A stretch of DNA of 32,229 nucleotides, taken from a virus. Taxonomy: Duplodnaviria; Heunggongvirae; Uroviricota; Caudoviricetes. Shown here one piece after another: positions 8,399 through 19,355 of the stretch. Location: the IMG/VR virus record IMGVR_UViG_2529292920_000016. The stretch is one strand, 5' to 3'. Position 1 is the first letter of the stretch, and every line of letters begins with the position of its first letter. The notes beneath the pieces were generated by a model. That model was not told the origin of the DNA and made no database searches. It was given only the letters and a program-made list of their open reading frames with translations. A program made the position numbers and the translations under genes.

Positions 8399-8673
8399 AT
8401 GGAGACTGTTTTTGACGCACTGAAAGCAATGGGAAAAGCCACATCCATAGAACTTGCTGCGCGCGTGAAGAAGTGCTGAACGAACTATGGGAACTGAAAA
8501 AGGCTGGTTTTGTTGATAAAAGCGCGTACACCTGGCGTGTGGCTGATAACAACGTTCAGCAGGAACAGCCAGCGCAGGCAGAACTGCCGGAAGAAACCAC
8601 CACAATGAGTGAAGTTATGCAGCGCATACTGGCATTTTATCAGGGAAATGTTCGATATTTTAGACGTTACTAG
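8399..8673 (+). pseudogene. DUF1627-like winged-helix gene split by a frameshift
   Basis: GGAGG RBS, then ATG 8399 gives [26 protein letters not shown] (stop at 8477). It continues in another frame as [19 protein letters not shown]... to 8673. One missing base near 8465 would join the two pieces. Confidence 0.55.
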
Positions 8674-9045
8674 ATTAAAGAGCATTAGTTCAGATGTGAA
8701 TTGACATTGTGTGGCACAGGGTTGGGCTAGCGTGGGGGTTTGCTTTGTGTAAGAAACGGATGCTCTGCAAATTACTACTAATGCTTAATGTTAGTCTGAT
8801 CTGCTCCCCGATGATTAATACACCGCTATGTTAGTAATGTCTGTAGATCGCTGTGTGTTGCATCCATCGGTTGACCCCACAGTCCAAACCAGACTGTCAG
8901 CTTTGATTCGATTCTATCTACTCAACCTGTCAGGTAATGTCTGAGCTAATACACAGAGTACGGCTATCGCGAACTTTAAGCTAGGTATCTGATACGCACC
9001 GTTCACTTGGTCGTACTTCTTGCACTGACTAGCTATCGTGCGCAG

Positions 9046-9094
9046 TTATTTATAGGTAATCTCCAGTGTATAATTTTCCAACTTATGGGAGATT
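9046..9094 (+). promoter_or_regulatory. Promoter with flanking inverted repeat for the 280-aa gene
   Basis: TATAAT at 9069-9074 is directly preceded by TG. There is a weak -35, TTATTT, at 9046-9051. Inverted repeat AATCTCC (9058-9064) / GGAGATT (9088-9094) brackets the -10 and start site. Confidence 0.55.
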
Positions 9095-9112
9095 GTAAAA
9101 CAGGAGGAATAT

Positions 9113-9955
9113 ATGAGGAAAAAATCGTTTGGACGTTGCCCGTTTGATTTCGACGAAGATGTAAAAAAAATAGCCGCGATAAATAAATATATCCATGCGA
9201 AATTTGAGAGGCATAAAAATAAAATAGATAACCTAAAGGGGGTGGAACAAAAATTGATGGTTTTACATTACTTTAATGTACTGAATGAACTTAGTAATCA
9301 GGCTATATTTTCTTTGAGTACCGGAGCCTTTTCAGCATCGGAAGTATTAACTAGAGTTATAATGGAACAGGCTGCCAATCAATTTTATATAGCAATTGAT
9401 GATGGAAAAAATGCACAAGCATTACTCAAGGGTAGTAAGAAATTAGTTCATAGTAATGGGAAACGGTGGCTGGAGTGTTTAAAATCCAAAGAAATGACTA
9501 ATCCAGCAGCAGATGAAAGGATTCGTATCGGAAAAGAGCTAACTGATATGTTTAATAGATTGTGGCCAAATACACCTGAATATCCTGGAACCAAAAAGCT
9601 TTTCGAAGTAATTGGCTGGGAAACACACTATCATGCCTATTACGTCCCTCTTTGTGATTCAATACATACATTCTCTGATGATATGGCAAATATAGTATCT
9701 CTATATAATGCAATCCAAAGCGATAAAACTACTGCTATCGAACTCACTCTTGCAGTTAAACAAGAAAATAAACGGCTGGCAATTTATAATGTCGTAATTG
9801 CTATTGGCCTGCGGTGTGAGGCCTTAGTAAATGTATTTAACTCTTTAGGTTATCGAGATATTATAACTGAAATGGCGCCAACAATAGATGCAGTCAACCA
9901 GATTATAATTCGATATGATGATTTCGAACATTCCAGAATTTTTTATTGTCAATAA
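9113..9955 (+). CDS. Orphan 280-aa helical protein of unknown function (cargo gene)
   Basis: AGGAGG RBS at 9102-9107. Long uninterrupted ORF, visibly AT-rich relative to the backbone. I recognise no TM segment and no nucleotide-binding or nuclease motif. Confidence 0.8.
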   Translation: MRKKSFGRCPFDFDEDVKKIAAINKYIHAKFERHKNKIDNLKGVEQKLMVLHYFNVLNELSNQAIFSLSTGAFSASEVLTRVIMEQAANQFYIAIDDGKNAQALLKGSKKLVHSNGKRWLECLKSKEMTNPAADERIRIGKELTDMFNRLWPNTPEYPGTKKLFEVIGWETHYHAYYVPLCDSIHTFSDDMANIVSLYNAIQSDKTTAIELTLAVKQENKRLAIYNVVIAIGLRCEALVNVFNSLGYRDIITEMAPTIDAVNQIIIRYDDFEHSRIFYCQ

Positions 9956-10060
9956 TTAATTGGCAGAATTCGTACATGCACAACAACTAGTTATAGTTGA
10001 CCTATTTCGCTCTTGAGAGACAACCATACTCAAATCTTCCACATTGCAGGAGATTTGAGT

Positions 10061-10581
10061 ATGAATACGTCACCGAGGAACAAAGACAGTATCATAGGCC
10101 CAAAAAGACCACTTCAGATATCTCATATCTGGGGGCTCCAAATCCGGCTTGAACTGGAAGGTAAAACGCGTGATTTAGCTCGGTTTCAAGCAGAGCTACG
10201 GTGCTGCAACTGAAAAACTGGCAGTCCTATCCAATTTGAGATAACCAAAGGGACAAGAGAAGCTGTTTCTGCATTGATAAAGCTTGGCAATTTACGCAGT
10301 AAAGACTACTTGTTCCGATCTCGGGTCGGTACTAACCAACACATATCAATCCTGCAATATAACCGAATCTTTCATAGGGGGGAGAAAAGCTTGGTCTCGA
10401 AGATTCGCTTTACAGCACACATTCCATGAGAAGAACAAAACCTTGCCTTGTCTGCAAGAAAACTAAGAATCTCCGGGTGATCCAACTTCCGTTGGGCCAT
10501 AAGAAAACGGAAAGCACAGTTCGTTATCTGGGTATAGAAGTTGATGATGCATTAGAGATCTCTGAATCGATCGAAGTCTAA
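10061..10581 (+). pseudogene. Degraded short tyrosine recombinase
   Basis: GGAG RBS, then MNTSPRNKDSIIGPKRPL.... In-frame TGA at 10211 next to an apparent internal deletion. Frameshift in the G6 run at 10377-10382. The tail reads THSMRRTK...LGHKKTESTVRYLGIEVDDALEISESIEV*. Confidence 0.7.
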
Positions 10582-10993
10582 AGCTGTCAGGGCTGCAGCA
10601 GCAGCCCTGTGCCAAGAGCGTACCAATATATGTCTCAAAAAATTGGGCACAGGTCAATATCAATACCAACAACTCTGATTGTGCTCATGTGATTTACTCC
10701 TGTAGAAAACGCAGACAGTAAAAATATTTCACTGGCTGCTTCAGACAGGGCGTCCATCATATCATTACATAACAATAGCGGGGCACGATATCTAGACATG
10801 CAGCAACGATGGACATAGAATGAGTACAATCAAAAGCATGTTTAACTACTTTAATTTAAAAATCTTAGAATCTTAGGTGTAGAGTTCAATACTTAGTTAC
10901 ATACCCTTTTGAAAGCATCACAAATCATAACTATGAGCCTGTTAAAGGCATAGGTATTCTTAATTAAGAGCATTTTAATGAGAGAAAAATAAA

Positions 10994-12367
10994 ATGAAAA
11001 GACTATATTATACCCATCATGATAGTCGAACCTTAAAACTTGCTATAGAAGGTGATGTTTCTGATAATGCGAATATTTTTACAGTAATTGTAGGTAAAAA
11101 TGGCGTTGGAAAAAGCAGATTGTTATCTCAGATTGCTAAAGACTGTATTCAAGATATTCATTTCTTGAAAACTTTTAATCCATTATTTGACAGAGAAATA
11201 ACACCAAAGTTAATTGCCGTATCTACCAGCCCATTCGATAAATTCCCTCCAGGGCGTAGGTCATTAAATCACCAAAGGAAAGAAAATAATTATCGCTATG
11301 TGGGTATGCGTGGAGAAGGCCCCTTCGGCGTATCAAATGCCGTATCCCTTTTATCTTCAGCAGCGAGAGGTTGGCTAGAGAAACTTGCTTATTCAGAAAA
11401 TCCTGCAAATTTACTCGATGTTTTTCATTCTATTGATTTTGAGCCCCATATAGAGTTTGTATTTAAACCAACTTACAACGGACCGGACACTCCTGACTAT
11501 AACTTCATTGGTGTATATTCAGATGAGATATTAACGGAAGTTAAGGAGTTATATTTAAAATACAATATAAAAATTGACAGGAAGAATATTGAGAGTCTCT
11601 TAAAGTTAAACTCCGAATCACGTCATGATATTTACGAAGCACTGGTTGAAATTAATCGATTTGAACCTGAACGTAGGGCTGTAACCTTGTCAGTCGATTT
11701 TACCAATGGTGAAACATTGGTTGGCTCGACTTATGCGAATAATTATTTTTCTAGATCAATTCTTAAACTTATGAACGCTGGCTTCATGAGATTGATGGAT
11801 ATGCGACTCATAAAAAAAAGCTATGGTCCCATGTCACTTAAACGTGCGAGCTCGGGAGAACAATGTTTATTAGTGATGTTGCTTGGAATTGCAGGGCATA
11901 TAACTGATGGTTCTATAATACTAATTGATGAACCGGAAATAAGCTTGCATCCTCGATGGCAGGAAGAGTTTATCATTATGTTAACAAAAGCATTTTTAAC
12001 TTACTCAGGTTGTCAATTCATAATTGCAACTCATTCACCACAAATAATATCCAATTTGCCGAATAAAGGTTGTTATATAACATCTTTGTCGAAAAGTTAT
12101 CTTTATAAAGCAAAATACTTTAGCAACCGGTCTGCAGACTATCAACTTGCGGAACTATTTGATGCCCCTGGCATTATGAATGAATACATTGCCAGATTAG
12201 CTTTCAATTTACTTTCAAAAGTTAAGACTGCTAAGTTAGTAACAGATGATAATTGGCGTGAATTAAAACAACTCCAGCTTCTCCTTGAAAACGTTAATAG
12301 TAATGACCCTATTAATGAACTCGTAAATTCCGTATCTCAGGTGTGTGAAATTTATGCCAAAAATTAA
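10994..12367 (+). CDS. ABC/SMC-type ATPase, Septu PtuA-like
   Basis: Walker A GKNGVGKS (aa 34-41), signature-like ASSGEQ, Walker B IILIDEPEISLH and ATHSPQ His-loop. There is a long helical insert between Walker A and the signature. AT-rich. Confidence 0.8.
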   Translation: MKRLYYTHHDSRTLKLAIEGDVSDNANIFTVIVGKNGVGKSRLLSQIAKDCIQDIHFLKTFNPLFDREITPKLIAVSTSPFDKFPPGRRSLNHQRKENNYRYVGMRGEGPFGVSNAVSLLSSAARGWLEKLAYSENPANLLDVFHSIDFEPHIEFVFKPTYNGPDTPDYNFIGVYSDEILTEVKELYLKYNIKIDRKNIESLLKLNSESRHDIYEALVEINRFEPERRAVTLSVDFTNGETLVGSTYANNYFSRSILKLMNAGFMRLMDMRLIKKSYGPMSLKRASSGEQCLLVMLLGIAGHITDGSIILIDEPEISLHPRWQEEFIIMLTKAFLTYSGCQFIIATHSPQIISNLPNKGCYITSLSKSYLYKAKYFSNRSADYQLAELFDAPGIMNEYIARLAFNLLSKVKTAKLVTDDNWRELKQLQLLLENVNSNDPINELVNSVSQVCEIYAKN

Positions 12368-12983
12368 AAATCCAATTAGATTCAGCGCAGAGTCATTAGA
12401 TATTATTGAGAAAAAATTGTCTTCTCCAGATTTTAAGCATACCAACTGGGGAGATGATGATTTGCAAGTTCTCCGTGCAGAAATTAGAAATCATTACAGA
12501 GAAGAACAAAAGCTAGAATGTGTATATTGTCATGAGCCTATTGGGGTAAGAGCTGCACAAGCTGCTCCTATAGAGCATATTGTGCCAAAATCTCAATATC
12601 TATGTTTTATTTTTGAACCTAAGAATCTATGTGTAGTATGTCCTGACTGCAATGAATTCAAAGGTAAAAATGAAGTGTTATTTGAACCCGTAATAAATGG
12701 GGGGCGGCGCAAAAACTATCCAACTGCATCTGCATCATTTCGCATCGTTCATCCACATATAGATGATTATGAGATGCATATTATAAAAGCAAATCGTGTT
12801 TATGTGGACAAAACACCTAAAGGGCACTATACCATTGGAATATGTAAACTAAATAGATTTTTTCATTATTTTGGGATGTGTGATGAATTTGTTAATGATG
12901 CAAAAATTGCTGAGGCAAATGAAAATTTTTTCAAAAAGGTAGTATTACTACTAATGAATTATTGGATGATGACATTCATTTGA
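12354..12983 (+). CDS. HNH endonuclease, Septu PtuB-like
   Basis: ATG 12354 (or GTG 12345) overlaps the ATPase stop. HNH motif: CVYCHEP...IEHIVPKS...NLCVVCPDCNEFKG. Confidence 0.8.
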   Translation: MPKIKNPIRFSAESLDIIEKKLSSPDFKHTNWGDDDLQVLRAEIRNHYREEQKLECVYCHEPIGVRAAQAAPIEHIVPKSQYLCFIFEPKNLCVVCPDCNEFKGKNEVLFEPVINGGRRKNYPTASASFRIVHPHIDDYEMHIIKANRVYVDKTPKGHYTIGICKLNRFFHYFGMCDEFVNDAKIAEANENFFKKVVLLLMNYWMMTFI

Positions 12984-13242
12984 TTTAACTATGAATTATT
13001 ATATTGTAAAGTAATCAGGTAAGATATGTTAGACAGTGAGACTATTGCCTTACAGAATTCATTATTCTTATGGATCGCCTTTCTGACTGATTTCATATTG
13101 GCGGGGTAACGGGAGTTAAGTAGAATGGCTGCGGGTGCTTGAGGCTATCTGTCTCAGGCATGAACACCAAAGGCAGATAGAGAAAAGCCCCAGTTAACAT
13201 TACGCGTCCTGCAAGACGCTTAACATTAATCTGAGGCCAATT

Positions 13243-14331
13243 TCATGCTAGACACATGTAGGTTAGCCTCTTACGTGCCGGAAGGCAAGGAGATGTATGG
13301 GTCCACCACATATTGCAATTTTTATTCTCTTTTAAAATATATTCCACGGGCGTCATTAGTGCGAGCGCCTTGTGGGGTCTTTTGCTGTTATACAGCACCA
13401 GATATTCCGCCAGCTTCTGGTTAAATAGCGCCAGATCTTCAAAGAGTAAAATCTCATTAAATTCAATAAACTGCTCTCTTAACGTCCGGTTAAAACGTTC
13501 ACAGATAGCGTTCATTTTTGGCGTGTAGGGATAGGTCCAGAGGTGTTTGATAGCGGCTTCCTGCAGCGTTTTGTCGAAGTTTCCCAGGAACTCTTTTCCG
13601 TTATCTGTGATTATCTGGCTGATACCGACCGGGAACAACCGGGCTGCGCGGCTGAAGAAGTGATTGACGATATCACTGTTGAGTGACGGCACAGCCAGCG
13701 CCAGCGCGTAATTGCTGCATTCGTCGATCATGGTGATGACATAGCGACGCAGTTCGCCCATTCTGAGCTCAATGGCGTCCATCCCAATGAGCTCACCTGT
13801 CTTTACCGGGCGGTAGTGCTTTGGCCTGCGGGGTTTGGCAGACCGCTTTTTGACAAGCAGTGCCTTCCCCCGCGATCCCAGACGCACAGGTATCATCCGC
13901 ATTTTATCATGTGCGGCAGCGATCATTCTGCCGATGGTGGAAACACTCGGACAGGCCAGATAGCGCTGTTCGCACCAGGGCTTCAGGCGAACAAAAATCT
14001 GCTCTTTACCGAGGTTCGGCAGCTCTGTCCTGAGGCGTCGAATCTCTTTCAGCACATCGGGATGCCAGTGTTTTTTTCGTCGCACCAGAGGTGCCTTACT
14101 GTGCGGGATTAGCCCCTCAGGTCCTTCCTTGTTCAGTAACTGACGCCACCAGTAAAGCGTGCGGCAGGACACGCCAAAGGCTTCAGAAGCTGCAGAAATA
14201 CCGTGTTTATCCCAGAAGTGCAGAGCCTTCATTCTCATTGTTGCTATATCAGCCATCACTGAAAGCCTCAACGCATAATCGGCCGTTTGGTAGTACTTAG
14301 GATAGCCAACCATCAGATGCTGCATTTGCAT
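13243..14331 (-). CDS. DDE (rve-type) transposase, IS481-like single-ORF architecture
   Basis: 362-aa ORF with an N-terminal HTH. DDE candidates are GMDAIE, ITDNGKEF and NAICERFNRTL. The family guess is from architecture only. Confidence 0.75.
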   Translation of the reverse strand: MQMQHLMVGYPKYYQTADYALRLSVMADIATMRMKALHFWDKHGISAASEAFGVSCRTLYWWRQLLNKEGPEGLIPHSKAPLVRRKKHWHPDVLKEIRRLRTELPNLGKEQIFVRLKPWCEQRYLACPSVSTIGRMIAAAHDKMRMIPVRLGSRGKALLVKKRSAKPRRPKHYRPVKTGELIGMDAIELRMGELRRYVITMIDECSNYALALAVPSLNSDIVNHFFSRAARLFPVGISQIITDNGKEFLGNFDKTLQEAAIKHLWTYPYTPKMNAICERFNRTLREQFIEFNEILLFEDLALFNQKLAEYLVLYNSKRPHKALALMTPVEYILKENKNCNMWWTHTSPCLPARKRLTYMCLA

Positions 14332-14387
14332 AGTGCAATCTCCCCTTACTTATCCGGAGGCAATTGCAATATCTCTGTGAACTTACA
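13257..14387 (-). mobile_element. Insertion sequence (boundaries approximate)
   Basis: Candidate terminal inverted repeats are TGTAGGTT at 13257 and the reverse complement of AACTTACA, ending at 14387. I found no clear target duplication, so the ends are uncertain. Confidence 0.5.
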
Positions 14388-14402
14388 CAGGAGAAGCAGG
14401 CT

Positions 14403-14558
14403 ATGAAGCAGCAAAAGGCGATGTTAATCGCCCTGATCGTCATCTGTTTAACCGTCATAGTGACGACACTGGTAACGAGGAAAGACCTCTGCGAGGTACG
14501 AATCCGAACCGGCCAGACGGAGGCCGCTGTCTTCACAGCTTACGAACCTGAGGAGTAA
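14403..14558 (+). CDS. hokD: Hok-family membrane toxin (HokD/RelF-like)
   Basis: The 51-aa product MKQQKAMLIALIVICLTVIVTTLVTRKDLCEVRIRTGQTEAAVFTAYEPEE is near-identical to HokD as recalled. GGAG RBS. Confidence 0.85.
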   Translation: MKQQKAMLIALIVICLTVIVTTLVTRKDLCEVRIRTGQTEAAVFTAYEPEE

Positions 14559-14626
14559 GAGACCCGGCGAGGGAGAAATCCCTCGCCACCTCTGATGTGG
14601 CAGGCATCCTCAACGCACCCGCACTT

Positions 14627-19105: not shown

Positions 19106-19181
19106 GGCCCTTTAGCTCAGTGGTGAGAGCGAGCGACTCATAATCGCCAGGTCGCTGGTTCAAATCCAGCAAGGGCCACCA
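19106..19181 (+). tRNA. tRNA with CAU anticodon, ileX/ileZ-like (Ile2) or Met
   Basis: Acceptor GGCCCTT/AAGGGCC, anticodon loop CTCATAA, T-loop GGTTCAAATCC and encoded CCA. Close to E. coli ileX as recalled. Confidence 0.85.
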
Positions 19182-19278: not shown

Positions 19279-19355
19279 GCGTTGTTAGCTCAGCCGGACA
19301 GAGCAATTGCCTTCTAAGCAATCGGTCACTGGTTCGAATCCAGTACAACGCGCCA
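19279..19355 (+). tRNA. tRNA-Arg (UCU)
   Basis: Acceptor GCGTTGT/ACAACGC, anticodon loop CTTCTAA, T-loop GGTTCGAATCC and encoded CCA. Confidence 0.85.

What the first reader, a model, noticed from the sequence alone, without database searches (positions are those of the whole stretch)
10994..12983. Septu-like two-gene module (ABC-type ATPase + HNH nuclease) inside the prophage
- **ATPase:** 457 aa with Walker A (GKNGVGKS), SSGEQ, Walker B (IILIDEPE) and an ATHSP His-loop. A long helical insert lies between Walker A and the signature.
- **Nuclease:** the ATPase is translationally coupled (14-nt overlap) to a 209-aa HNH nuclease (CxxC, EHIVPKS, CPDCNEFKG).
- **Interpretation:** this is the PtuA/PtuB architecture that defines Septu.
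- **Other details:** both genes are AT-rich cargo. The leader carries an exact tandem AATCTTAG x2 at 10861-10876. The HNH C-terminus (KKVVLLLMNYWMMTFI) looks atypically hydrophobic and may be a replaced 3' end.

No reverse transcriptase or msr/msd is adjacent, so this is not the retron-Septu form.
Basis: partly seen in the sequence, partly recalled or inferred. Interest (0 to 1): 0.7.

Follow-up and report, generated by a model that had tools for sequence, protein, structure and literature searches.

The report
Prophage Septu defence pair, frameshifted tail
This is an ordinary, already catalogued two-gene Septu anti-phage system (ATPase PtuA plus HNH nuclease PtuB) carried by an E. coli lambdoid prophage; its only unusual feature is a one-base deletion that rewrites the last 14-16 residues of the nuclease.

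Summary
A 457-aa ABC-type ATPase (10994-12367) overlaps by 14 nt a 209-aa HNH nuclease (12354-12983), and all quoted motifs are present. Both genes lie in AT-rich cargo (30-38% GC) inside a lambdoid prophage.

PADLOC HMMs give full-length matches to PtuA (PDLC00283, E 1.9e-165) and PtuB (PDLC00325, E 5.5e-82). No reverse transcriptase or retron RNA is nearby, so this is Septu type I. The same pair, with the same 14-nt overlap, occurs in Pseudomonas putida and Dickeya in different neighbourhoods.

The DNA is 100% identical to an E. coli draft contig (AIEZ01000011.1). It is ~99.9% identical to the prophage at potC in EPEC E2348/69, where the genes are annotated only as "AAA family ATPase" and "HNH endonuclease".

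- **Hydrophobic PtuB tail:** it is real and explained. An A6 run is A5 in the window, a -1 frameshift at codon 196 that replaces GSITTNELLDDDIHLI with VVLLLMNYWMMTFI. The allele is rare but present in at least 10 samples. The catalytic core is untouched. The effect on function is unknown.
- **Leader tandem repeat:** the 8-nt repeat is no more than chance.

Verdict: a known kind of system, low novelty. This clade is very distant in sequence from every experimentally studied Septu, so its target (DNA or tRNA-Tyr) is inferred only.

The parts
10994..12367 (+). ptuA: 457-aa ABC/OLD-type ATPase of Septu type I. Walker A K40, signature SSGEQ 286-290, Walker B D312-E313, H-loop H347. Three C-terminal helices at 394-456, the likely PtuB-binding extension.
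   Evidence: PADLOC PDLC00283, E 1.9e-165, full length. Pfam AAA_21 and AAA_15. AF2 model pLDDT 81.8. All top 50 Foldseek PDB hits are PtuA chains. The protein is identical to the common E. coli allele, seen on 473 contigs.
12354..12983 (+). ptuB: 209-aa HNH nuclease. Zinc cysteines C56/C59/C96/C99; H75, N91, N100. This is the frameshift allele; the common allele is 211 aa.
   Evidence: PADLOC PDLC00325, E 5.5e-82, residues 4-195 against profile 2-191 of 213. Pfam HNH, 23.9 bits against a cutoff of 21.4. All invariant columns are retained. A profile search of the PDB finds PtuB-class chains first: 9n69_F, 9e8z_E, 8ee7_C.
12354..12367 (+). 14-nt overlap of the ptuA stop with the ptuB start, suggesting translational coupling (inferred).
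   Evidence: Sequence. The same overlap geometry occurs in the P. putida and Dickeya homologues.
12933..12937 (+). A5 run, the site of the -1 frameshift (A6 in the common allele). From codon 196 the tail reads VVLLLMNYWMMTFI instead of GSITTNELLDDDIHLI.
   Evidence: Base-by-base comparison with NC_011601.1. The reference PtuB extends the PADLOC match to profile position 205 of 213 and scores 278.1 against 272.5 bits. The allele is found in at least 10 samples.
11812..11819 (+). A8 run inside ptuA, intact here. In at least one other strain it is A7, which splits PtuA.
   Evidence: Alignment with NZ_CP148282.1, where ptuA is annotated as two CDS. A 292-aa truncated PtuA is also recorded for DEC2A.
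10582..10993 (+). Non-coding leader upstream of ptuA, with possible promoters at 10793-10821 and 10842-10871 and the chance-level tandem AATCTTAG x2 at 10861-10876.
   Evidence: Promoter-like sites are no more frequent than in shuffles, 12 against 12.0. Tandem repeat expectation is 0.6 per window. No Rfam match.

Best explanation
The two genes are a Septu type I anti-phage system, carried as AT-rich cargo in a variable slot of an E. coli lambdoid prophage. The slot lies between the replication genes (with a ydaW remnant) and the hok/sok-rem-nin region.

**Likely mechanism (inferred from characterised Septu and retron I-A PtuAB, not shown here).**
- PtuA, an ABC/OLD-type ATPase, oligomerises. 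Pairs of its three-helix C-terminal extensions clamp the helical C-terminal domain of PtuB.
- In uninfected cells the nucleotide-bound PtuA scaffold keeps the HNH nuclease inactive.
- Infection, through a phage structural protein or a change in nucleotide state, releases the nuclease activity.
- PtuB then cuts nucleic acid: supercoiled DNA (nicking) and/or tRNA-Tyr in the variable loop. This arrests the infected cell and blocks superinfecting phages to the benefit of the lysogen.

**This window's allele.** ptuA is intact. ptuB carries a -1 frameshift in an A6 run that replaces the last 16 residues, immediately after the last predicted helix, with 14 hydrophobic ones. The catalytic core is untouched. 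Whether the altered tail weakens PtuA binding or solubility is unknown.
For: **Shown here**
- Full-length, very strong PADLOC matches to PtuA and PtuB.
- Intact catalytic motifs in invariant columns.
- A 14-nt overlap conserved in P. putida and Dickeya, whose neighbourhoods are unrelated and defence-island-like: DO-GTPase/GAP1, AAA_21+HATPase_c, UvrD.
- No RT or retron RNA nearby.
- The PtuA model (pLDDT 81.8) finds only PtuA chains among its top 50 PDB fold matches, each at Foldseek probability 0.99-1.00. These include E. coli Septu 8EEA/8EE4/8SUX and retron Ec78/Ec83/Eco7 PtuA.
- A PtuB profile finds PtuB-class chains first in the PDB.
- PtuA ends in three helices (394-456). The PtuB model, at low confidence, ends in three helices (155-195).
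- Low GC and prophage position. The same slot holds other cargo in related phages.

**From the literature**
- In retron Ec78 PtuAB, a nine-helix bundle forms from two PtuA C-terminal extensions and the PtuB C-terminal domain. The paper reports both elements as conserved with stand-alone Septu. The helix counts above match this (PMC12819146).
- Stand-alone Septu nicks DNA and is inhibited by ATP (PMC12819146).
- Septu EcB88 cleaves tRNA-Tyr and needs the Walker A/B and HNH residues (PMC13096335).
Against: - No experiment exists for this locus or clade in the searchable literature.
- This clade is very distant from every characterised Septu. PtuB against EcB88 PtuB gives BLASTP E 0.64. PtuA against solved E. 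coli Septu PtuA gives phmmer E 3e-7 over about 55 residues only. The NCBIfam retron-PtuA and PtuB equivalogs score far below cutoff: 65.8 against 500 and 30.5 against 150 bits. Substrate and trigger therefore cannot be transferred with confidence.
- Global TM-scores of the PtuA fold matches are low, 0.2-0.34.
- The PtuB model is poor (pLDDT 62) and gave no significant fold hit.
- The frameshift removes a G-x-(V/I) motif that most close homologues keep just after the last helix. This allele may therefore be impaired.
Confidence: 0.85

Rival explanations
1. The module is a decaying Septu in this strain, functionally impaired or dead. The frameshifted hydrophobic PtuB tail disrupts folding, solubility or docking onto the PtuA C-terminal extensions. 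The pair then no longer protects, or PtuB is no longer properly restrained.
For: - The frameshift sits immediately after the last helix of the PtuB C-terminal domain, which is the PtuA-binding part in solved PtuAB complexes (PMC12819146).
- The conserved G-x-V/I motif after that helix is lost.
- The allele is rare: 11 contigs against at least 1000 for the 211-aa allele.
- Another strain carries a clearly inactivating A8 to A7 frameshift in ptuA, so decay of this module does occur.
Against: - The tail is the least conserved part of the protein. In homologues its length ranges from 5 to about 23 residues after the frameshift point.
- All catalytic and zinc residues and all three C-terminal helices are retained.
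- The allele persists in at least 10 samples and in two prophage backgrounds.
- ptuA is intact.
Confidence: 0.35
2. It is the effector remnant of a type I-A retron (Septu type II) that has lost its reverse transcriptase and msr/msd.
For: The best solved-structure matches for both proteins include retron I-A PtuA and PtuB. NCBIfam's only named hits are the retron Ec78 PtuA and PtuB models.
Against: - Those NCBIfam hits are far below cutoff: 65.8 against 500 and 30.5 against 150 bits.
- PtuA is 457 aa, shorter than the retron I-A chains (542-552 aa), which according to the paper carry an N-terminal extension and a helical flap (PMC12819146).
- There is no RT ORF and no retron RNA within the prophage region examined.
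- Homologues in other genera are also RT-less two-gene units.
Confidence: 0.02
3. It belongs to a different ABC-ATPase plus nuclease system (PARIS, AbiL, PADLOC candidate PDC-M01, Gabija/OLD-like), or is not a defence system at all. Non-defence options include an AbiEii-type toxin-antitoxin pair, a restriction-associated ATPase, or a homing HNH.
For: Weaker PADLOC hits to PDC-M01A/B, AriA and AbiLi. The Pfam AAA_21 description reads 'putative AbiEii toxin'. TIGR04435, a restriction-associated AAA ATPase model, hits at E 1.5e-14.
Against: - These hits cover only the conserved C-terminal ABC motifs. They are 70-140 orders of magnitude weaker than the full-length PtuA match.
- The partner is an HNH protein of the PtuB family. 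It is not a Toprim protein such as AriB, OLD or GajA.
- TIGR04435 scores 53.7 bits against a cutoff of 300.
- The pair moves as a unit between unrelated contexts, unlike a homing endonuclease.
Confidence: 0.03

Closest known systems
Septu type I (PtuA/PtuB; Doron et al. 2018; PADLOC models PDLC00283 and PDLC00325)
   Same: Two co-oriented, overlapping genes: an ABC/OLD-type ATPase and an HNH nuclease. No RT. Full-length HMM matches. Patchy distribution on mobile elements and defence islands.
   Different: Nothing at the level of system definition. In this window, PtuB ends in a frameshifted 14-residue tail instead of the family's usual tail.
Structurally solved E. coli Septu PtuAB (PDB 8EE4, 8EE7, 8EEA, 8SUX)
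   Same: PtuA fold class: Foldseek probability 0.99-1.00. The PtuB profile aligns 50-177 to 48-181 of 8ee7_C. PtuA has a three-helix C-terminal extension and PtuB a helical C-terminal domain.
   Different: Very low sequence similarity. PtuA phmmer gives E 3e-7 over residues 306-359 only. PtuB gives E 0.011 with a profile and nothing with the single sequence. PtuB here is 211 aa against 243 aa. Global TM is only 0.2-0.26. Whether this clade shares the PtuA hexamer assembly reported for stand-alone Septu, or its ATP inhibition, is untested.
Septu EcB88 (E. coli JBBDAGI-19-0041) and retron-Eco7/Ec78 PtuAB, both tRNA-Tyr variable-loop cleavers
   Same: Same two-domain logic. Defence requires the Walker A/B and HNH residues (PMC13096335).
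   Different: No significant pairwise similarity of PtuB, BLASTP E 0.64. The coincidence of H75/N91 numbering is chance. The NCBIfam retron equivalogs are far below cutoff. There is no RT or msDNA here.
The same locus in EPEC O127:H6 E2348/69 (E2348C_RS06550/RS06555; WP_000827088.1, WP_001124204.1)
   Same: The 2.3-kb region differs only by the A-run length. The prophage, insertion site (potC side) and neighbours are the same.
   Different: E2348/69 has the A6, 211-aa PtuB allele. It also has extra ISEc13 and IS200C insertions elsewhere in the prophage.

Membership tests
Septu type I | PtuA-family ABC/OLD-type ATPase with intact Walker A, signature, Walker B and H-loop | tested here: met
   PDLC00283, E 1.9e-165, 2-455 against 3-447 of 448. 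AAA_21 and AAA_15 above the Pfam cutoffs. The motifs sit in invariant columns.
Septu type I | PtuB-family HNH nuclease with catalytic H/N residues and zinc cysteines | tested here: met
   PDLC00325, E 5.5e-82. Pfam HNH 23.9 bits against 21.4. C56, C59, H75, N91, C96, C99 and N100 are invariant among 27 homologues.
Septu type I | The two genes are adjacent, co-oriented and in one operon, and the pairing is conserved across taxa | tested here: met
   14-nt overlap. The same geometry occurs in P. putida and Dickeya in unrelated contexts.
Septu type I | No associated reverse transcriptase or ncRNA (this separates type I from type II, the retron I-A form) | tested here: met
   No RT in the RefSeq or Pfam calls for the neighbours. 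No retron RNA family at E<=1.
Septu type I | PtuA fold resembles solved PtuA | tested here: met
   Model pLDDT 81.8. All top 50 Foldseek PDB hits are PtuA chains at probability 0.99-1.00. Global TM is only 0.2-0.34, reflecting differences in domain arrangement.
Septu type I | PtuB fold resembles solved PtuB | tested here: inconclusive
   Model pLDDT 62.2, with no Foldseek hit at E<=0.001. A sequence profile does reach 9n69_F (1.5e-5), 9e8z_E (9.6e-5) and 8ee7_C (0.011).
Septu type I | PtuB C-terminus matches the family profile to its end | tested here: not met
   The window allele aligns only to profile position 191 of 213. The A6 reference allele aligns to 205 of 213. The tail is replaced by the frameshift. 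This concerns the intactness of this allele, not family membership.
Septu type I | PtuA-PtuB complex formation and nucleotide-controlled nuclease activity | not testable with these tools
   No multimer prediction or biochemistry is available. Inferred only from PMC12819146.
Septu type I | Protection against phage infection | not testable with these tools
   No experiment on this locus was found.
Retron type I-A (Septu type II) | Reverse transcriptase plus msr/msd ncRNA next to ptuAB, and PtuA/PtuB reaching the NCBIfam equivalog cutoffs | tested here: not met
   No RT or ncRNA. NF041760 scores 65.8 against 500 bits; NF041761 scores 30.5 against 150 bits.
PARIS (AriA/AriB) | AriA ATPase paired with a Toprim-domain AriB | tested here: not met
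   AriA models hit only the C-terminal ABC motifs, E 2e-22. The partner is HNH, not Toprim.

The most novel reading that the evidence does not exclude
The homopolymer tracts in this AT-rich operon act as slippage-prone switches that turn a costly abortive-infection module off, or modulate it, within prophage populations. The tracts are A8 in ptuA and A6 in ptuB. The hydrophobic-tailed PtuB would then be a selected, functionally altered variant rather than plain decay, for example with changed PtuA docking or localisation. In addition, this uncharacterised Septu clade could have a trigger or target different from those of the studied clades.
Probability: 0.07. Interest if true: 0.5.

Novelty: already known. 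Interest (0 to 1): 0.15.

Why it matters
It adds little beyond annotation.

- The locus is a textbook example of a prophage carrying a defence system in a variable cargo slot. It sits in a lineage close to the EPEC reference strain E2348/69, where RefSeq still names the genes only generically.
- This Septu clade is widespread in Enterobacterales and Pseudomonas, yet it is extremely distant from the few Septu and retron PtuAB pairs studied experimentally. It would be a reasonable choice for testing how general the tRNA-Tyr and DNA-nicking activities are.
- Natural frameshift alleles provide ready-made material for asking what the PtuB tail does. These are the rewritten PtuB tail here and the split PtuA in another strain.

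Tried and rejected
- **PtuB structure.** The AF2 model from a 27-sequence alignment was poor (pLDDT 62). Its Foldseek search of the PDB gave nothing significant, best E 1.9. It could not be used as fold evidence or to place the tail.
- **EcB88 numbering.** The mutated residues of the published Septu EcB88 PtuB (H75, N91) have the same numbers as here, which suggested a close relative. I retrieved the EcB88 PtuB sequence from the paper's supplement. BLASTP shows no significant similarity, E 0.64, so the coincidence was rejected.
- **Literature searches.** Searches for the RefSeq protein accessions and old locus tags gave no paper. The search 'Septu + E2348 + prophage' returned three papers. The one I opened matched only on the word 'septum'; the other two I did not read.
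- **Single-sequence PDB search.** For PtuB it found nothing. Only the profile reached PtuB chains.
- **Tandem repeat and promoters.** The leader tandem repeat was considered as a regulatory element and rejected as chance-level. Promoter-like sites are no more frequent than in shuffles.
- **Neighbouring genes as system components.** The DUF5677 gene and the decayed tyrosine recombinase upstream were considered. They were rejected because they are not next to ptuAB in other genera and DUF5677 has no PADLOC hit.
- **Phage and plasmid collections.** No sequenced phage carries this ptuAB at DNA level. Among plasmid records, only one small E. coli record of 8.5 kb, with no neighbouring context examined, and a distant Acinetobacter plasmid homologue were found.
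Full report
**What is in the sequence**

Two + strand ORFs occupy the finding's coordinates. The first runs 10994-12367 and encodes 457 aa. The second runs 12354-12983 and encodes 209 aa from the ATG that RefSeq also uses. They overlap by 14 nt, and an AGGTG lies about 11 nt upstream of the second start.

- The ATPase has GKNGVGKS at 34-41 (K40), SSGEQ at 286-290, IILIDEPE at 308-315 (D312, E313) and ATHSP at 345-349 (H347).
- The nuclease has CVYC at 56-59, EHIVPKS at 74-80 (H75), N91 and CPDCNEFKG at 96-104.

In alignments of 30 ATPase and 27 nuclease homologues, these residues all fall in invariant or near-invariant columns. GC is 0.30-0.38 across the pair and 0.50-0.58 in the flanking prophage backbone.

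The exact tandem AATCTTAG x2 at 10861-10876 exists. An 8-mer tandem of this kind is expected 0.6 times per window in composition-matched shuffles, and 38% of shuffles contain at least one. I attach no meaning to it. Promoter-like sites in the leader are also no more frequent than in shuffles.

**Where the window comes from**

- The window is 100% identical over 12.6 kb to E. coli draft contig AIEZ01000011.1 (GCA_000249135.2).
- It is about 99.9% identical to the lambdoid prophage next to potC in EPEC O127:H6 E2348/69.
- In E2348/69 the two genes are annotated only as 'AAA family ATPase' (WP_000827088.1) and 'HNH endonuclease' (WP_001124204.1).
- The prophage context is complete: integrase, excisionase, exonuclease, dicB, repressor/cro-like genes, replication genes, RusA, a Q-like gene, lysis genes, terminase and portal.
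- The full module occurs in 19 of 5426 complete E. coli genomes.

**Family assignment**

- Against PADLOC-DB, the ATPase matches PtuA model PDLC00283 from end to end (2-455 against 3-447 of 448), E 1.9e-165. Most of the other high-scoring hits are further PtuA models.
- The nuclease matches PtuB model PDLC00325, E 5.5e-82, and most of the other high-scoring hits are PtuB models.
- Hits to PDC-M01, AriA (PARIS), the retron I-A ATPase and AbiLi are many orders of magnitude weaker. They are confined to the C-terminal ABC motifs.
- Pfam sees AAA_21/AAA_15 and HNH.
- The NCBIfam retron Ec78 PtuA and PtuB equivalogs are hit far below their cutoffs, 65.8 against 500 and 30.5 against 150 bits.
- No reverse transcriptase is annotated or detected by Pfam among the neighbours. 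Rfam at E<=1 finds no retron RNA.

In PADLOC's scheme a PtuA+PtuB pair without an RT is Septu type I; with an RT it is type II, the retron I-A form (PMC8565338).

**Independent support**

- The pair is conserved as a unit. In Pseudomonas putida and Dickeya dadantii, a 457-aa PtuA and a 211-212-aa PtuB show the same 14-nt overlap. Their neighbourhoods are unrelated and look like defence islands: DO-GTPase/GAP1, AAA_21+HATPase_c, UvrD and IS elements.
- An AlphaFold2 model of PtuA (pLDDT 81.8, pTM 0.79) finds only PtuA chains among its top 50 Foldseek PDB matches, each at probability 0.99-1.00. These are retron Ec78/Eco7/Ec83 PtuA and E. coli Septu 8EEA/8EE4/8SUX. Global TM-scores are low at 0.2-0.34, so domain arrangement differs.
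- A PtuB profile finds PtuB-class chains first in the PDB: 9n69_F at 1.5e-5, 9e8z_E at 9.6e-5 and 8ee7_C at 0.011.
- The PtuB structure model was poor (pLDDT 62) and its fold search was uninformative.

**The odd C-terminus**

The window differs from E2348/69 in the 2.3-kb region by a single base. An A6 run is A5 at 12933-12937. This shifts the frame at codon 196...NENFFKK-GSITTNELLDDDIHLI (211 aa) becomes ...NENFFKK-VVLLLMNYWMMTFI (209 aa).

- The reference protein extends the PADLOC match to profile position 205 of 213 and scores slightly higher. The window protein stops matching at position 191.
- The 211-aa allele is on at least 1000 contigs, the 209-aa allele on 11.
- The 11 contigs come from at least 10 samples, namely six NCBI assemblies and four SRA-run (Logan) assemblies, so it is not one assembly's error.
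- They represent at least two prophage backgrounds, with and without an IS in hok and with different downstream genes. It is unresolved whether the allele arose once and recombined or arose repeatedly.

Functionally, the tail is the least conserved part of PtuB. Its length ranges from 5 to about 23 residues after the frameshift point. Most close homologues do keep a G-x-(V/I) just after the last helix, and that is lost here. In solved retron Ec78 complexes the helical C-terminal domain of PtuB is the part clamped by two PtuA C-terminal extensions in a nine-helix bundle, and the paper reports both elements as conserved with stand-alone Septu (PMC12819146). Consistent with this, the PtuA model ends in three helices (394-456). 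The low-confidence PtuB model ends in three helices (155-195), and the frameshift falls immediately after the last one. The catalytic core is untouched. An effect on docking or solubility is possible but unproven.

A second natural lesion exists in the population. Strain Z1323PEC0010 has A7 instead of A8 at 11812-11819, which splits PtuA. A 292-aa PtuA is recorded for DEC2A.

**Mechanism**

These steps are inferred by homology and not shown for this locus:
1. PtuA oligomerises and holds PtuB.
2. Nucleotide-bound PtuA restrains the HNH nuclease.
3. Infection relieves the restraint.
4. PtuB then nicks DNA and/or cleaves tRNA-Tyr, which aborts the infection.

The literature basis is as follows. 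Stand-alone Septu nicks DNA and is inhibited by ATP, and it is reported to be sensitised by a phage tail fibre (PMC12819146). [quoted passage not shown]

There is an important caveat. This clade is extremely distant from all of these systems. PtuB against EcB88 PtuB gives BLASTP E 0.64. PtuA against solved Septu PtuA is alignable over only about 55 residues. I am confident about family membership, moderately confident about the general ATPase-gated nuclease logic, and not confident about substrate or trigger.

**Context**

The pair lies in about 4.4 kb of low-GC cargo (roughly 8600-13060) between the replication genes with a ydaW remnant and the hok/sok-rem-nin region. Related Rac-like and lambdoid phages share both flanks but carry other genes in between. 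The slot is therefore variable, in line with the known habit of prophages of carrying defence genes in hotspots (PMC9122126, listed).

Upstream lie a DUF5677 gene (9113-9955) and a decayed tyrosine recombinase (10061-10581). Neither accompanies ptuAB in other genera.

**Verdict**

This is a standard Septu type I system that existing tools already recognise at full length, in DNA essentially identical to a reference EPEC genome. Novelty is low. The only new details are the cause of the odd PtuB tail (a homopolymer frameshift allele) and the great sequence distance between this clade and the experimentally studied Septu systems.

Noticed in passing
window 13133-14559: An IS481-family element of about 1.1 kb (roughly 13294-14388) is inserted in the hokD/sok locus. 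It sits between the sok/mok leader (Rfam sok, 112 bits, 13133-13299) and the hokD CDS (14404-14559). Related prophages without the IS join 13293 directly to 14389 with a 6-nt overlap. The transposase ORF (13243-14331, minus strand) has no stop inside the element and reads about 50 nt into the flanking sok DNA.
   Followed up: partly
window 11812-11819 (compare L019, NZ_CP148282.1): The A8 run inside ptuA is A7 in strain Z1323PEC0010, which splits PtuA into two annotated CDS. A 292-aa PtuA is also recorded for DEC2A. This is a second natural homopolymer frameshift in the same operon.
   Followed up: yes
window 8600-13060; L017 (mEp460_ev081), L018 (vB_EcoS-666R9): The interval between the ydaW/lygF side and mok/hok is a variable cargo slot in Rac-like and lambdoid phages. 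Related phages share both flanks but carry unrelated genes there, for example a 449-aa hypothetical protein on the opposite strand or a DNA-binding protein.
   Followed up: partly
window 9113-9955 and 10061-10581: A stand-alone DUF5677 gene (280 aa, GC about 35%, no PADLOC hit) and a frameshifted tyrosine recombinase remnant (GC about 44%) lie just upstream of ptuA. The three pieces differ in GC, suggesting separate acquisitions. The function of DUF5677 is unknown.
   Followed up: partly
window 19106-19181 and 19279-19355: The prophage carries two tRNA genes. One has a CAT anticodon (ARAGORN calls it Met; RefSeq annotates the homologue as Ile). The other is Arg-TCT. There is no tRNA-Tyr, the target reported for some Septu systems.
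   Followed up: no
window about 22889 (compare L001 32148-34411): The window lacks the ISEc13 and IS200C insertions present at the corresponding place in the E2348/69 prophage.
   Followed up: no
L013 1-4535 (Dickeya dadantii JABEPC010000076.1): In Dickeya, the homologous ptuAB lies directly downstream of a DO-GTPase1/2 + GAP1-N1 + DUF4238 cluster, a predicted conflict system. In P. putida (L012) it lies next to an AAA_21 + HATPase_c_3 + UvrD cluster.
   Followed up: no
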